Below are positions 53,846 through 59,090 of a stretch of DNA of 64,000 nucleotides, in pieces. Source of the DNA: Anaerolineae bacterium (lineage in GTDB: Bacteria; Chloroflexota; Anaerolineae; Aggregatilineales; Phototrophicaceae); NCBI GenBank assembly GCA_020849765.1, contig JADLAY010000017.1:44906-108905 (forward strand), given 5' to 3'. Numbering within the stretch: the first letter of the stretch is position 1; each line of letters begins with the position of its first letter. The notes under the pieces were generated by a model. That model was given only the letters and a program-made list of their open reading frames with translations. It did not search any database and was not told the origin of the DNA. A program made the translations under genes and the position numbers.

Positions 53846-54436
53846 TTAATCGCGGCGCAGGATCAACCAACCCACGATCATAATCGCCGCCCCCGCCGCC
53901 ACCAGGAAGACCATGTTATCGGTTGGCGCGGGCGGGGCAGAGATGCGCGTGCGTTCCTCCTCGGTACGCGCACGACGACGCGCCAGTTCCAGTTCGAGAC
54001 TTTGCAACCCCATCGCCATCGCCCACCTGTGATTCGCGCTGAAGATCGGGCGCAGCAGCGGCGTCAGCGTCTTGAGCAGCGGTTTCTCCGCGCGGATCGT
54101 CCACTCGTAGGTCGCGACCACCCAATCGCCATCCTGCGCGAAGGTCCACTCCCCGTGGCCGACGAAATCACCCTTCGCCTCCAGCAAAATGCGCTTGCCC
54201 CGCTCGATCTCAGCCACGCGAAAGTCCCAGCGCAGCGTGTACGGCAGCCAGCCCTTGGTGTAGAGGCTGATCTCCTCGCCGATGCCGTTCGCATCGCCCG
54301 GCTTGATCCGCTGCACGCCCAGGTAGACGGCGGGCCACCAGCGCGGCAGATCGGTCGCGTCCGCCAGGACGTCCATCACCTCGTCGACCGTCCCCCACAC
54401 CCGCCACTGCGTGATGAAGTGATACTGGTTGTCCAT
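53846..54436 (-). CDS. SRPBCC-superfamily (polyketide cyclase/AHSA1-like) protein with C-terminal TM anchor
   Basis: Start MDNQYHF preceded by AAGGAG. Beta-grip-like sequence, hydrophobic C-terminus. Confidence 0.65.
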   Translation of the reverse strand: MDNQYHFITQWRVWGTVDEVMDVLADATDLPRWWPAVYLGVQRIKPGDANGIGEEISLYTKGWLPYTLRWDFRVAEIERGKRILLEAKGDFVGHGEWTFAQDGDWVVATYEWTIRAEKPLLKTLTPLLRPIFSANHRWAMAMGLQSLELELARRRARTEEERTRISAPPAPTDNMVFLVAAGAAIMIVGWLILRRD

Positions 54437-54637
54437 GCTGATGTGCTCCTTGGGCACTGTGACCGGATGGCGGGAATGCTAGCACGAAGGGGCGAGGATC
54501 TCCCATACTAGATGATCCGTAGCTGGCCGCAACAGCCTTGCCGCGTGCCTAAGGCGAGACCTCAGTCAGGGAATTCGAAGCTGGTTTCGGAAGCAATGCC
54601 TTGTCGGAGCGCCACTCGATAGGCACCAAAACGATCA

Positions 54638-55633
54638 TCAATGGCCACGGAGCCGCGGATGCGACGAAACATAAATAATTCGTGGCGGCTCTTGAAGTTT
54701 TGGCTTGATAATGTATCGATCAAGCTTATCAAGATAGTCAGGGCGCCGATAGATAAATGCAGATGTGAATGTCTGCCAGAATATGCGCGCTTCTGGCCGT
54801 GTCTTAGGGACTTCGTAGCCAAGTTTTGCCGCAAGATCCGGCAGATAAATGTCAAACGCCGCTTTAGCGAATTCGCCCCAGCTGATGGCGGCGGCGGTAG
54901 CTCGTTGCACCGCGAATACGGCGAACACAATCACAACAGGGATTATCCCAACAACCTCAACTCGTTTCTGCACCAATACGAGTACAACGTATTCCAGGAT
55001 AATCAGGACACTGATAAACCAGAAATTAAGCCACATGTTGGTCTTTGTCTGAGCTGTATCCAATTCTGTACGAAAATCCGCAGGAATTACAGATAACAGC
55101 CGCGGCCAACCCTCAATGCCTTCCAGGCCATACATGACACGTGAATAAACCTCAAAAGCCCGTATTGCGTTTCCAAAAGCGGTTGGCAGAATCCACTCCT
55201 CAGCGTCTGGAAACTCCTGAGCTTTCTTCTGTTGAAGTCGACTCCAATAGTCTTCAGCAGCTTCGCGCTCGGGAGTTCCTTCCTTCAGATTCCATGCCTT
55301 TTCACGCGCTGCCTCGACGTCCTTCTGAAGTTGTCTATAGCGGTTCAATTCCAGGGCCAGAAAGTAGTGGAATGGATTCCCCTTCTTCCCGTAACCCTCT
55401 AACAGTCGATACACGCCCAGATTGACCGCGTTCAACACAACCCCTGTGGCCCAAGACAGAAAGCCAAACAAGACGGTTTCTGCGAGAGGCGTCTGACCGG
55501 TAAGTAATGCAGGGAAAGTTATGACGCCGAAGCTTTGCAGGAGATATGCCGTTATGATCAGCAACGCGGCTGACGGGAGCACAAATCCTGTGGCGAAATT
55601 GCGATCAAGCAGTTTCGTGAGCTCACTAAACAT
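54638..55633 (-). CDS. 4-TM membrane protein (candidate effector partner of the upstream TIR protein)
   Basis: 331 aa. TM1-2 at aa ~15-75, ~120-aa coiled-coil/charged cytoplasmic region, TM3-4 at aa ~200-250. Region looks about 50% GC. 11-bp gap to the TIR gene. Confidence 0.6.
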   Translation of the reverse strand: MFSELTKLLDRNFATGFVLPSAALLIITAYLLQSFGVITFPALLTGQTPLAETVLFGFLSWATGVVLNAVNLGVYRLLEGYGKKGNPFHYFLALELNRYRQLQKDVEAAREKAWNLKEGTPEREAAEDYWSRLQQKKAQEFPDAEEWILPTAFGNAIRAFEVYSRVMYGLEGIEGWPRLLSVIPADFRTELDTAQTKTNMWLNFWFISVLIILEYVVLVLVQKRVEVVGIIPVVIVFAVFAVQRATAAAISWGEFAKAAFDIYLPDLAAKLGYEVPKTRPEARIFWQTFTSAFIYRRPDYLDKLDRYIIKPKLQEPPRIIYVSSHPRLRGH

Positions 55634-55644
55634 GGATGCCTCCT

Positions 55645-56118
55645 CTATTCGTCAGCGGCAGCAGTGGCTGGAGGCGGCGGCGGAGGCGGGTCAAGTGGCA
55701 GAGGTGAGGTTCCCTTGCCGGGAAAGAGAGCAAGACCAGGAAATGATCGACGCATCAGACCGTCCATGTAGTCAGTCATGTCGCGAAGGGTGCCAGGTAC
55801 GTCAGTCTCAAGGCGTTTCGCTGCGACTTCATCAATGCCTTCATCGAGTTGGATGGTGAGATAATACGTCGGCTTTTCGAGTGTGCGAGCGATTTCAATC
55901 TCACGTTGAACTTGTTCGGATTGAGTGGAACCATCTTTGATTACGACGATCACTGCATCACTATCCGCGATATAGTCATGAACGTAATTCGCCCAGTATT
56001 CACCAGGACGTATTTCCGCACTCCTGTTGGTTTCTATGCCGTTGAGATCGAGCCTATCCGCAATTCTACGGCTCAGATCGTCATCATCAGATGTGTGGGA
56101 TACGAATATCTTCGGCAT
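55645..56118 (-). CDS. TIR-domain protein (TIR_2/ThsB-like, 157 aa) with Pro-rich tail
   Basis: Start MPKIFVSHTSDDDD after GGGAGGTG. Motifs IFVSH, GEYW, SDAVIVVI, STQSEQVQREIEIA (conserved Glu). Low-GC region. Confidence 0.7.
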   Translation of the reverse strand: MPKIFVSHTSDDDDLSRRIADRLDLNGIETNRSAEIRPGEYWANYVHDYIADSDAVIVVIKDGSTQSEQVQREIEIARTLEKPTYYLTIQLDEGIDEVAAKRLETDVPGTLRDMTDYMDGLMRRSFPGLALFPGKGTSPLPLDPPPPPPPATAAADE

Positions 56119-56530
56119 ATCACACCTCCCTGACCTACGTGCCAGCAACTGACTATGATTAACCCAACCATATTGATCTCAAGCATATTATATGGTGAAT
56201 TGAGAAATATAGCCGAATAACGATCTGCAAGCAGAGTGTGGCGTGACATGCCTAAAGCCTTTGAGCGGTATCACGGTTCATAATCGTATCTCGTTCTTCT
56301 CAAGTTAATTTCATATCTCACCGCTATCGGCGCGAAGATGAATAGACAGGGTTAACAGGTCGGCGTGGATTCGGCTTTTGGGAACGCCCGCCCATAAAAT
56401 GGGACGGGCTACGGAATCGCCCTCTCCGAGGGCTATATCAACAGCGATCTCATCAGGAAGCCTTCGTAGGAGACGCCTGCTTAGACAGGGGATTTCATTC
56501 CCTGGCGACGAAACTCCGCAACAAAAAGAG

Positions 56531-56548
56531 GGATGCGCGCGGCGCATC
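56531..56548 (-). terminator. intrinsic terminator downstream of gyrA
   Basis: On the minus strand GATGCGC-CGC-GCGCATC followed by CCTCTTTTTGTTG. Confidence 0.65.
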
Positions 56549-56594
56549 TGCCACACTCATCCCTCATTATCTCGCATGACTGCCTTGTGAAACC

Positions 56595-59090
<2,496 letters not shown>

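What the first reader, a model, noticed from the sequence alone, without database searches (positions are those of the whole stretch)
54638..56118. TIR-only protein plus 4-TM membrane protein: candidate Thoeris-like anti-phage module with an undescribed effector
Two minus-strand genes separated by 11 bp, in a segment that looks markedly AT-richer (about 45-50% GC) than the flanking gyrA and SRPBCC genes. This suggests horizontal acquisition. The upstream gene encodes a 157-aa TIR_2/ThsB-like domain that keeps the conserved catalytic-type glutamate (QREIEIA), so NAD-derived signal production is plausible. The downstream gene encodes a 331-aa protein with 2 TM helices, a 120-aa charged coiled-coil region, 2 more TM helices and no recognisable enzymatic domain. 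Known Thoeris effectors are SIR2/SLOG or TM-Macro proteins, and a 4-TM partner without a Macro domain is not a described architecture. By analogy with CBASS 2TM/4TM effectors it could be a signal-gated membrane-disrupting effector. A long (about 400 nt) AT-rich, hairpin-containing leader precedes the TIR gene.
Basis: partly seen in the sequence, partly recalled or inferred. Interest (0 to 1): 0.8.

Follow-up and report, generated by a model that had tools for sequence, protein, structure and literature searches.

The report
Peptide-tagged proteins with cognate membrane partner
The TIR gene and the 4-TM membrane gene do belong together, but not as a Thoeris-like signalling pair: the membrane protein is from a large undescribed family that always follows one or more unrelated genes whose products share only a short tail peptide, which points to an unknown tag-and-membrane-receptor system.

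Summary
Two minus-strand genes lie 11 bp apart in a low-GC island between gyrA and an SRPBCC gene. One encodes a 157-aa TIR_2 protein that keeps the catalytic-type Glu. The other encodes a 331-aa all-helical 4-TM protein with no match in any family library or to any known fold.

The Thoeris-like reading is not supported. The 4-TM protein belongs to a family with about 6,400 clusters at 50% identity. In 123 non-redundant loci it is the only conserved gene. The same-strand genes upstream are unrelated to each other: GroES/EL, HU, CspA, RecA, L20, RNAP omega, Hsp20, Type III restriction subunits, PLD-SNF2 helicases, a STAND NTPase, regulators and bactofilin. TIR appears only twice. These partners share only a peptide, roughly L-[PA]-G-[DEK]-x-T-T-x-x-P-P-P plus a charged tail. 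Up to five tagged genes precede one membrane gene.

The tag is conserved as a peptide, lies almost only upstream on the same strand, and tracks the membrane-protein clade. Proteins found by the tag alone lead back to the family.

The window's TIR tail (LFPGKGTSPLPLDPPPPPPP) is a degenerate tag.

Best reading: the membrane protein docks tagged cytosolic proteins at the inner face of the membrane. The biological role is unknown, and defence is plausible for this locus.

The parts
55645..56118 (-). Gene for the 157-aa tagged client protein: a TIR_2 domain followed by a linker and the C-terminal tag. The stop codon is 55645-55647.
   Evidence: ORF; sequence and GGGAGG Shine-Dalgarno; TIR_2 at E 7.6e-14; identical to NCBI MAG protein P0121.
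55843..56109 (-). TIR_2 domain (residues 4-92). The catalytic-type Glu E73 is the codon at 55900-55902.
   Evidence: Pfam match. Alignment to SPARTA TIR-APAZ puts E73 on residue 77 (weak E-value; the catalytic role of E77 is from my own knowledge).
55669..55728 (-). Degenerate C-terminal tag, L131-P150 (LFPGKGTSPLPLDPPPPPPP), followed by a short acidic tail (ATAAADE).
   Evidence: G134 falls in the only near-invariant non-Met column of the 91-partner alignment. The spacer-tolerant pattern PG[DNEKQR]x[TS][TSIV]x0-8PPP matches here, in 13/90 partners, in 1/2307 control C-termini, and nowhere else in the window's six-frame translation of 101,658 aa. It does NOT score with the canonical motif HMM.
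55634..55644 (-). 11-bp junction with an AGGAGG Shine-Dalgarno sequence for the membrane gene. The tight spacing is typical of the family (modal gaps 2-15 bp).
   Evidence: Sequence; gap distribution; conserved junction TAA-CTTTGGAG-N-ATG in close relatives.
54638..55633 (-). Gene for the 331-aa 4-TM protein, a member of a large undescribed family and the proposed tag receptor or anchor.
   Evidence: ORF. No family match. More than 120 homologues and 6,433 representatives at 50% identity. AF2 pLDDT 92.4. No fold relative.
55391..55399 (-). Invariant E79-G80-Y81 motif at the cytoplasmic end of TM2.
   Evidence: Invariant columns in alignment A1 and A3; topology.
55151..55189 (-). Conserved cytoplasmic motif L149-P-T-A-F-G-N-A-I-R-A-F-E161. 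F153, G154, N155 and E161 are invariant.
54851..54880 (-). Conserved motif W252-G-E-F-A-K-A-A-F-D261 just after TM4. G253 and D261 are invariant.
56532..56548 (-). gyrA intrinsic terminator hairpin. It marks the upstream boundary of the island and is not part of the module.

Best explanation
The 331-aa protein belongs to a large, undescribed family of inner-membrane proteins with four TM helices and both termini in the cytoplasm. Its conserved, aromatic- and charge-rich cytoplasmic face most likely recognises a short linear peptide tag. The consensus tag is L-[P/A]-G-[D/E/N/K]-x-T-T-(D-A)-P-P-P followed by a charged, usually Lys-rich, tail. The tag is carried, usually at the C-terminus, by whatever protein or proteins are encoded directly upstream in the same operon. 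In this window the tagged client is a TIR-domain protein of the NADase type.

The proposed mechanism is tag-mediated docking of the client at the inner face of the membrane. TIR and the membrane protein would then be linked by direct protein-peptide contact, not by a diffusible nucleotide signal.

Shown: the strict gene order, the specificity of the tag, selection acting on the peptide, co-variation of tag and membrane protein, tag plus membrane gene persisting as one unit while the cargo is swapped, and reciprocal retrieval.

Inferred: physical binding, and the cytoplasmic location of the binding site.

Speculative: that docking holds potent proteins (TIR NADase, restriction nucleases, helicase-nucleases, STAND NTPases, transcription factors) at or off the membrane and releases or activates them when the envelope is perturbed, for example by phage. 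That would make this locus a membrane-anchored immune module.
For: 1. The family gene is the only conserved gene in 123 non-redundant loci.

2. 100 of 134 loci have a same-strand ORF ending within 120 bp upstream. These ORFs fall into 43 unrelated sequence clusters. The Pfam census gives 39 families, including DUF4332, RNAP omega, Cpn10, HU, TCAD2, Cpn60, CSD, TIR_2, RecA, L20, HSP20, Redoxin, RRM and LexA.

3. The partners share only the tag. The motif HMM at >=8 bits gives 71 hits on the family-gene strand and 0 on the opposite strand, with up to 5 tags per locus, all but one weak hit (L033, 8.9 bits) upstream. A tag of >=5 bits lies within 600 bp upstream on the same strand in 58/97 loci, against 4/97 on the opposite strand and 0/92 downstream.

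4. Selection is on the peptide: codon-position entropy is 0.58 / 0.22 / 1.57 bits. Tags within one locus are not recent DNA copies. The tag can sit in internal loops (L070 CspA, L123 DUF1269) or occur twice in one protein.

5. Tag similarity tracks membrane-protein identity among pairs with unrelated cargo: Spearman 0.23, with 2 of 2000 permutations as high.

6. In close relatives, DNA homology runs from the membrane gene through the junction and tag codons and stops at the first tag codon.

7. Reciprocal test: a profile of the tag alone retrieved small proteins. All three I looked up (four contig places) lie in same-strand arrays ending in a 318-330-aa gene with no Pfam match. In L140 five tagged genes precede a family member at E 2.6e-126.

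8. Topology by the positive-inside rule across 344 members puts the conserved motifs in the cytoplasm. Zinc-ribbon fusions at the C-terminus agree. Tagged clients are classic cytosolic proteins, or membrane proteins whose tag follows the last TM helix.

9. A second, unrelated TIR_2 protein (L060, E 6.9e-25) carries a canonical tag.
Against: The window's own tag is degenerate and fails the canonical HMM; its assignment rests on a spacer-tolerant pattern refined after seeing the data, plus its position. The co-variation could partly reflect shared host lineage. The charge-covariation test between tag position +1 and the membrane protein was not significant. The invariant E/N/E/D/Y/W constellation could equally be an active site. 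About one third of loci lack an HMM-detectable tag, although many show visible variants. The range of clients, from primary rpoZ in a yicC-gmk-rpoZ operon to restriction enzymes, has no single obvious physiological rationale. A factor encoded elsewhere could be what recognises the tag.
Confidence: 0.5

Rival explanations
1. Tag-processing enzyme. The 4-TM protein is a membrane-embedded enzyme (a protease, transferase or ligase) that cleaves or modifies the tag, for example on its Thr-Thr or Asp residues. This would resemble a cytoplasmic-face counterpart of the sortase, exosortase or myxosortase systems, rather than a passive anchor.
For: Invariant polar residues cluster at the membrane-cytosol interface: E79, Y81, N155, E161 and D261, with near-invariant R76, R158 and K257. 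One membrane gene serves up to five or more tagged substrates. The logic of one dedicated membrane protein plus a C-terminal signature on varied proteins matches the known sorting systems (PMC11980579, listed).
Against: There is no invariant His, Cys or Ser nucleophile and no similarity to any protease or transferase fold. The tags lack the TM helix plus basic cluster of the sorting signals, and the clients lack signal peptides. Internal tags in protein loops (L070, L123) would be destroyed by cleavage.
Confidence: 0.2
2. Toxin-antitoxin or abortive-infection pore. The 4-TM protein is a membrane-disrupting toxin kept closed by binding the tag of an upstream, well-expressed protein. Loss of the tagged partner, for example after phage shuts off host expression, opens the pore.
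For: The gene order (neutraliser upstream, membrane protein downstream, tightly coupled) resembles toxin-antitoxin operons. Partners are often highly expressed proteins. There is defence-type cargo nearby.
Against: Many partners are stable housekeeping proteins, some of them primary copies. Arrays of five tagged genes are not typical of toxin-antitoxin systems. The family is essentially absent from phages and plasmids, apart from Ralstonia megaplasmids and one IMG/VR contig. There is no fold similarity to holins or pore formers beyond noise.
Confidence: 0.1
3. Translational device. The tag is a nascent-chain arrest or pausing peptide (poly-Pro followed by poly-Lys) that couples or regulates translation of the next gene, as RAPP-type arrest peptides do upstream of membrane-protein genes.
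For: The tag usually lies 0-12 codons before the stop codon and a few bases before the next start codon. D-A-P-P-P followed by a Lys run is expected to be slow to translate (my own knowledge of EF-P-dependent motifs). Tag, junction and membrane gene are inherited as one DNA unit.
Against: RAPP arrest strictly needs the Arg: all 19 substitutions abolish it, and such peptides are typically small secretory or membrane proteins (PMC12992588). Here the position is Asp. The L-x-G-D-x-T-T core is at least as conserved as the Pro run. Many variants have no PPP at all (GLEGDSSTSFD, GLPGRPGTGSGGPGG). Some tags lie 26-144 residues before the stop codon or occur twice in one protein. Co-variation with the membrane-protein clade is not predicted by this model.
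Confidence: 0.08
4. This is a Thoeris-like or CBASS-like system in which the TIR protein makes an NAD-derived signal that gates the 4-TM protein as a membrane-disrupting effector.
For: TIR_2 domain with the catalytic-type Glu. Weak matches to ThsB HMMs. Low-GC island. Membrane effectors are known in CBASS and type II Thoeris (my own knowledge).
Against: The 4-TM family pairs with TIR in only 2 of about 120 distinct partners. It has no Macro, SLOG, SIR2, SAVED or other known ligand-sensing domain. No third gene is conserved. The feature shared by all partners is a peptide tag, not an enzymatic activity.
Confidence: 0.04
5. Export signal. The tag is a C-terminal secretion signal and the 4-TM protein is a minimal exporter or holin-like channel for folded cytosolic proteins.
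For: A C-terminal, positively charged signal is reminiscent of type IV secretion substrates (my own knowledge). The cargo includes classic 'moonlighting' extracellular proteins such as GroEL, HU and peroxiredoxin.
Against: Clients include integral membrane proteins with the tag right after their last TM helix (L105 CbiM, L060, L005, and small single-pass proteins). They also include primary RNAP omega, 900-1200-aa helicase-nucleases and transcription factors that must act in the cytoplasm. No ATPase or energising component is conserved.
Confidence: 0.04

Closest known systems
Thoeris (ThsB TIR + ThsA SIR2-SLOG, or TM-Macro in type II)
   Same: A stand-alone TIR_2 protein with the catalytic-type Glu lies next to a membrane protein in a small island that looks horizontally acquired.
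   Different: There is no SLOG, Macro or SIR2 sensor domain. The membrane family is not specifically linked to TIR. The link is a C-terminal peptide on the TIR protein rather than a nucleotide signal.
Kiwa (KwaA 4-TM + KwaB) and Zorya (ZorAB + ZorC/D): membrane-embedded defence hubs with cytosolic effectors (PMC11785009)
   Same: In both, a multi-pass membrane protein is physically coupled to cytosolic nucleic-acid-targeting effectors. Some tagged clients here are SNF2 helicase-nucleases with weak matches to ZorD and DrmD HMMs.
   Different: There is no sequence or fold similarity to KwaA or ZorA. Here one receptor takes interchangeable clients through a portable peptide, and many clients are housekeeping proteins.
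Sorting-signal plus dedicated membrane enzyme pairs (sortase/LPXTG, exosortase/PEP-CTERM, rhombosortase/GlyGly-CTERM, myxosortase/MYXO-CTERM; PMC11980579)
   Same: A short C-terminal signature on otherwise unrelated proteins, with a dedicated multi-pass membrane protein encoded nearby.
   Different: Those signals act outside the cytoplasm, need an N-terminal signal peptide, and consist of a motif, a TM helix and a basic cluster. Here the clients are cytosolic, the tag has no TM helix, and the membrane protein has no similarity to any of those enzymes.
RAPP-type translation arrest peptides (ApcA, ApdA, ApdP, SecM-like; PMC12992588, PMC7897499)
   Same: A conserved Pro-containing C-terminal peptide encoded immediately upstream of a membrane-protein gene.
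   Different: The Arg is essential in RAPP and is Asp here. RAPP peptides are small secretory or membrane proteins that monitor localisation. Here the carriers are arbitrary folded proteins, tags can be internal or duplicated, and many variants lack the Pro run.
Bacterial hub-and-peptide interactions (beta-clamp-binding motif, SSB C-terminal tip, ssrA/SspB tags); from my own knowledge
   Same: Many unrelated proteins carry the same short linear motif that docks them on a single hub protein.
   Different: The hub here is an integral membrane protein. The clients are encoded in cis in the same operon rather than scattered around the genome.

Membership tests
Thoeris | ThsB-type TIR protein | tested here: inconclusive
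   TIR_2 at E 7.6e-14. The ThsB_TIR Pfam model scores 19.9 bits, below its 21.2-bit cutoff. PADLOC ThsB models match at E 7e-4 and 3.6e-3. It is a generic TIR, not specifically ThsB.
Thoeris | ThsA effector with a SLOG or Macro signal-sensing domain (plus SIR2 or TM helices) | tested here: not met
   The 331-aa protein has no Pfam, NCBIfam or PADLOC match to SLOG, Macro or SIR2 at E <= 1. No fold match either.
Thoeris | Conserved co-occurrence of the TIR gene with the effector gene across genomes | tested here: not met
   The TIR protein has no close relatives. The effector family has TIR partners in 2 of about 120 distinct tagged proteins.
CBASS (2TM/4TM effectors) | A CD-NTase cyclase gene in the operon, and an effector with a nucleotide-sensing domain | tested here: not met
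   No conserved third gene in 123 loci. No PADLOC CBASS match.
Kiwa | KwaA homology, and a KwaB (DUF4868) partner | tested here: not met
Sortase/exosortase-like protein-sorting systems | A tripartite C-terminal signal (motif + TM helix + basic cluster) on proteins with an N-terminal signal peptide | tested here: not met
   The tags have no TM helix after the motif. The clients are cytosolic proteins such as GroEL, RecA, L20 and RNAP omega.
Sortase/exosortase-like protein-sorting systems | A membrane enzyme homologous to sortase, exosortase, rhombosortase or CPBP proteases | tested here: not met
   No Pfam or NCBIfam match. No fold match. No invariant His, Cys or Ser.
RAPP-type arrest peptides | An R-A/G-P-P core with an essential Arg, near the C-terminus of a small secretory or membrane protein | tested here: not met
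   The core is D-A-P-P-P or lacks Pro altogether. The Arg requirement is from PMC12992588. The carriers are cytosolic proteins of 50-1200 aa.
RAPP-type arrest peptides | Tag-dependent ribosome stalling | not testable with these tools
   Needs toeprinting or reporter assays.
New family proposed here (tag + 4-TM receptor module) | Membrane protein matching the family profile, with invariant EGY, FGN..E, W and WG..D motifs | tested here: met
   The window protein scores 381 bits against the family profile and carries all invariant residues.
New family proposed here (tag + 4-TM receptor module) | Immediately upstream same-strand gene ending in the L-[PA]-G-x-x-T-T...PPP tag | tested here: inconclusive
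   The window tail LFPGKGTSPLPLDPPPPPPP matches the spacer-tolerant pattern (1/2307 controls; unique in the 64-kb window), and its Gly aligns with the invariant tag Gly. It fails the canonical and iterated HMMs.
New family proposed here (tag + 4-TM receptor module) | Physical recognition of the tag by the membrane protein | not testable with these tools
Only indirect support is available.

The most novel reading that the evidence does not exclude
Bacteria have a widespread, portable system of a peptide tag and a membrane receptor. Any protein given the ~12-residue tag is recruited to a dedicated 4-TM hub at the inner face of the cytoplasmic membrane. Tagged proteins range from TIR NADases, restriction endonucleases and helicase-nucleases to RNAP omega, GroEL/ES, RecA, HU, transcription factors and bactofilin. 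Cargo genes are swapped freely in front of a persistent 'tag + receptor' unit. For loci like this one, the hub would act as a membrane-anchored immune platform that holds effectors in place or releases them.
Probability: 0.4. Interest if true: 0.9.

Novelty: categorically new. Interest (0 to 1): 0.85.

Why it matters
If the docking model is right, it reveals a general way of localising proteins in bacteria that is based on a short linear motif. Such systems are familiar in eukaryotes but almost unknown for the bacterial cytoplasmic membrane. The membrane family has thousands of members across Chloroflexota, Acidobacteriota, Cyanobacteria, Armatimonadota, Planctomycetota and Pseudomonadota, and no database model covers it.

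It would give a function-neutral handle, the tag, for finding the system's clients by sequence alone. It would explain a class of odd C-terminal extensions on housekeeping proteins such as GroEL, RNAP omega, L20 and HU. It would also suggest that some restriction enzymes, TIR NADases and STAND NTPases are deployed from the membrane, which bears on how cells avoid self-damage and meet incoming phage DNA.

The tag is short and portable, so it could also be useful as an engineering tool. The module occurs in cultured Ralstonia solanacearum and Paraburkholderia, so it can be tested directly.

Tried and rejected
- **AF2 co-fold.** There is therefore no structural test of binding.
- **AFDB Foldseek.** The library was unavailable.
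- **Canonical and iterated motif HMMs.** They do not pick up the window's tail, so I had to use a spacer-tolerant pattern calibrated on control C-termini.
- **Charge covariation.** The test compared tag position +1 (D/E against K/R) with membrane-protein columns. The best p was 0.0024 over 237 tests with only six secure K/R tags, which is not significant.
- **Recent DNA duplication of tags within a locus.** Rejected. Identity within a locus against between loci is 63% vs 58% for amino acids and 46% vs 40% at synonymous sites.
- **Tag as a DNA or RNA element, such as an attC-like site.** Rejected, because third codon positions are nearly free.
- **A conserved third gene** (ATPase, protease, cyclase). 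None was found.
- **Phage or plasmid carriage.** There were no phage matches. The only plasmid matches were Ralstonia megaplasmids. One of 2.9 million IMG/VR contigs matched.
- **Leader RNA.** No Rfam family, and the region includes gyrA's terminator.
- **Insertion repeats around the island.** Only a 17-nt, 88% inverted repeat, probably chance.
- **Literature.** Searches for the motif strings, for sorting-signal and linear-motif vocabulary, and for arrest peptides found nothing describing this module.
- **Tag-profile search of the large database.** It returned only proteins of 50-79 aa, so it did not give a full census of cargo.
- **'YvlD/DUF360' name.** One source gives this name to a Paraburkholderia homologue, but Pfam does not support it.
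Full report
**1.

The window carries two minus-strand ORFs 11 bp apart, at 54638..55633 (331 aa) and 55645..56118 (157 aa from the ATG). Each has a strong Shine-Dalgarno sequence. GC drops to 0.46-0.55 across roughly 54400-56600, against 0.60-0.67 in the flanks. The flanking genes are GyrA and a Polyketide_cyc/SRPBCC protein.

The upstream protein matches Pfam TIR_2 at E 7.6e-14 over residues 4-92. Its best matches among solved structures are weak (E about 0.3), but all are SPARTA TIR-APAZ TIR domains. That alignment places E73 (VQREIEIA) on residue 77, which I recall is the catalytic Glu.

The 'leader' is an ordinary intergenic region. It begins with gyrA's intrinsic terminator and has no Rfam match.

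**2. The TIR and 4-TM pairing is not conserved, but something else is**

The TIR protein has no close relatives in a database of 5.8 billion sequences. The membrane protein has more than 120 homologues at 29-46% identity. An exhaustive profile search finds 6,433 representatives (clusters at 50% identity) at E <= 1e-3 and 1,926 at E <= 1e-30.

The family alignment shows invariant E79-G80-Y81, P142, F153-G154-N155, E161, W176, G253 and D261. I collected 137 loci from genomes and metagenomes and found the family gene in 134 of them.

Clustering every ORF in 123 non-redundant loci shows that the family gene is the only conserved gene. No cyclase, ATPase, protease or other third component recurs.

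**3. The upstream partners are hypervariable and share one peptide**

In 100 of 134 loci a same-strand ORF ends within 120 bp of the family gene's start, often 2-15 bp away. These ORFs fall into 43 sequence clusters.

The largest apparent cluster turned out to be unrelated proteins joined only by a common C-terminal peptide, roughly L-[PA]-G-D-x-T-T-D-A-P-P-P followed by a Lys-rich tail. Degenerate versions appear on nearly all other partners, for example LPGEPTT, LEGDSTTD, LPGKPTTPPP and LHGKPVIDAPPP.

A Pfam census of 91 non-redundant partners hit 39 families:
- DUF4332 (5) and RNA polymerase omega (5)
- GroES (4)
- HU (3) and TCAD2 (3)
- GroEL (2), cold-shock domain (2), DUF1269 (2) and TIR_2 (2, counting the window)
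- RecA, CbiM, peroxiredoxin, ribosomal protein L20, a histidine kinase, RRM, Hsp20 and a LexA DNA-binding domain (1 each)

Tagged ORFs further upstream include:
- Type III restriction Res subunits in at least four loci, each preceded by an untagged Mod methyltransferase where the upstream sequence is available
- PLD + SNF2 helicases resembling DrmD
- an Avs-like STAND NTPase
- response regulators, and sigma-like and LuxR-like proteins
- a second, unrelated TIR_2 protein with a canonical tag

In L097 the tagged RNA polymerase omega sits in the canonical yicC-gmk-rpoZ operon, so primary housekeeping genes can carry the tag.

**4. The tag is specific, positional and selected as a peptide**

A motif HMM at 8 bits or more gives 71 hits on the family-gene strand and none on the opposite strand.

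In 97 loci with enough upstream sequence, 58 have a tag of at least 5 bits within 600 bp upstream on the same strand. That compares with 4 on the opposite strand and 0 of 92 downstream.

Codon-position entropy across 19 canonical tags is 0.58, 0.22 and 1.57 bits. The third positions are nearly free, so conservation acts on the peptide and not on a DNA or RNA site. The tags were chosen by their amino-acid pattern, so only the freedom at third positions is informative.

Tags within one locus are no more alike than tags from different loci, so they are not recent duplications. The tag can sit inside a loop of CspA (L070) or of DUF1269 (L123, whose homologue L106 lacks it). It can also occur twice in one protein.

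Across 61 anchored tags, the L-[PA]-G-[DEN]-x-T-T core is at least as conserved as the Pro run.

**5. Evidence linking the tag to the membrane protein**

- Tag similarity rises with membrane-protein identity even among pairs whose cargo is unrelated. Spearman is 0.23, with 2 of 2000 permutations as high, and mean tag similarity rises about six-fold across identity bins.
- In closely related loci, DNA homology runs from the membrane gene back through a conserved junction (TAA-CTTTGGAG-N-ATG) and the tag codons. It ends at the first tag codon, and upstream of that the cargo is unrelated. So tag plus membrane gene persist as a unit while the cargo is exchanged.
- The reciprocal test succeeded. 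A profile built from the tag alone retrieved 37 small proteins. All three I looked up lie in same-strand arrays that end in a 318-330-aa gene with no Pfam match, and two arrays begin with Mod-Res or a PLD-SNF2 helicase. In L140 five consecutive tagged genes, one of them a bactofilin, precede a family member at E 2.6e-126.
- The positive-inside rule across 344 members indicates that both termini are cytoplasmic, which puts the conserved motifs in the cytoplasm. Occasional C-terminal zinc-ribbon fusions agree. Tagged clients are cytosolic proteins, or membrane proteins whose tag follows the last TM helix.

**6. Where the window's TIR protein fits**

Its tail, LFPGKGTSPLPLDPPPPPPP-ATAAADE, is a degenerate tag.
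- Its Gly134 lies in the only near-invariant non-Met column of the 91-partner alignment.
- It matches the spacer-tolerant pattern PG[DNEKQR]x[TS][TSIV]x0-8PPP. That pattern occurs in 13 of 90 partners and in 1 of 2307 control C-termini. It occurs nowhere else in the window's six-frame translation of about 100,000 residues.
- PGK variants occur in other loci (L095, L004, L047, L109).
- However, the tail fails the canonical and iterated HMMs, and I refined the pattern after seeing the data. I therefore treat this assignment as probable, not proven.

**7. Mechanism**

The most economical reading is that the 4-TM protein recognises the tag at its conserved cytoplasmic face and docks the operon's proteins at the membrane. 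That face is rich in aromatic and charged residues.

A close rival is that the protein is an enzyme that processes the tag, because the invariant E/Y/N/E/D set could be an active site.

RAPP-type translational arrest is unlikely. The essential Arg is replaced by Asp (PMC12992588), many variants lack prolines, and tags can be internal or far from the stop codon.

Export is unlikely, given membrane-protein clients, primary RNAP omega and the lack of any energising component.

The toxin-antitoxin idea fits the gene order but does not fit the five-gene arrays or the stable housekeeping partners.

The Thoeris-like model fails its own co-occurrence test.

What docking achieves is unknown. The many nucleases, the TIR proteins, the STAND NTPase and the transcription factors among the clients suggest that potent proteins are held at the membrane and released from it. 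That would be functionally analogous to Kiwa or Zorya (PMC11785009), but this part is speculation.

**8. Distribution and tractability**

The family is found in Chloroflexota (including this Anaerolineae MAG and Nitrolancea), Acidobacteriota, Armatimonadota, Cyanobacteria, Planctomycetota, Vulcanimicrobiota and many Pseudomonadota. The last group includes Paraburkholderia, Trinickia, Bradyrhizobium, Nitratireductor, Aurantimonas and Geobacter.

It is absent from 50,697 phage records and occurs in only 1 of 2.9 million IMG/VR contigs. It is present on the megaplasmids of the Ralstonia solanacearum species complex, where the annotated upstream hypothetical protein ends in ...LMLPGEPGQTPTQFPLPPESDGD.

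**9. Novelty**

No Pfam, NCBIfam or PADLOC model covers the family, no fold relative was found, and full-text searches for the motif and for related concepts found no description.

The logic resembles the sortase and exosortase sorting systems and the hub-peptide interactions of the beta-clamp or SSB. It differs from all of them in compartment, in signal architecture and in the receptor protein.

Noticed in passing
window 56532-56548 (-): A GC-rich hairpin followed by a T-run sits just after the gyrA stop codon.
   Followed up: yes
window 54639-54655 and 56618-56634: A 17-nt inverted repeat (88% complementary) brackets the low-GC two-gene island. One arm is at the 3' end of the 4-TM gene and the other is inside the 3' end of gyrA. 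It is probably chance.
   Followed up: no
L097:3532-7104: The primary RNA polymerase omega gene, in the canonical yicC-gmk-rpoZ operon, carries a ~70-aa C-terminal extension that ends in the tag and is followed by the family gene. So the system is not limited to accessory genes.
   Followed up: yes
L087:6-6960 and L008:128-6966: Complete Type III R-M operons in which Mod is untagged and Res is tagged, followed by more tagged genes and the family gene. In L008 the mod gene is split over three reading frames while res is intact.
   Followed up: partly
L015:4561-6585 (Nitrolancea hollandica; L120 carries the same 674-aa architecture): A 674-aa family member is fused at its C-terminus to a GH76-like / (alpha/alpha)6-barrel domain. 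This is odd for a terminus predicted to be cytoplasmic.
   Followed up: partly
L139:4611-6480 (IMG/VR contig): The only viral-contig occurrence: a tagged GroES paralogue followed by the family gene, next to an ORF that looks (by eye only) like a terminase small subunit. It may be a prophage moron or lie at a prophage boundary.
   Followed up: no
L090:3099-4460: An untagged protein with pentapeptide repeats plus a TIR domain lies two genes downstream of a family gene whose partner is a tagged RecA.
   Followed up: no
P0025, P0134, P0026; L112:2640-3614: A few family proteins (about 4-6 of 368) carry a tag-like motif at their own C-terminus, for example ...LMAGNSTTDAPPPDVKKKKQKGK. This could mean self-association or autoinhibition.
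   Followed up: partly
L070:93-332 and L123:2-292: The tag is inserted in internal loops of a cold-shock protein and of a DUF1269 protein, with the native sequence resuming afterwards. The DUF1269 homologue in L106 lacks the insertion.
   Followed up: partly
L068, L073, L082, L087 tag-coding segments: The DNA string GCCCCGCCGCCTGATGTCAAGAAG (coding for APPPDVKK) recurs in tags from different loci of the low-GC canonical clade. It could reflect codon bias or exchange of tag segments between loci.
   Followed up: no
L138:4392-6179 (Ralstonia solanacearum CP023017.1, CJO94_17790/17795): The module is present on megaplasmids of cultured Ralstonia solanacearum-complex strains. Both genes are annotated as hypothetical, and there is an unusually long gap of 150 bp between them.
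   Followed up: partly
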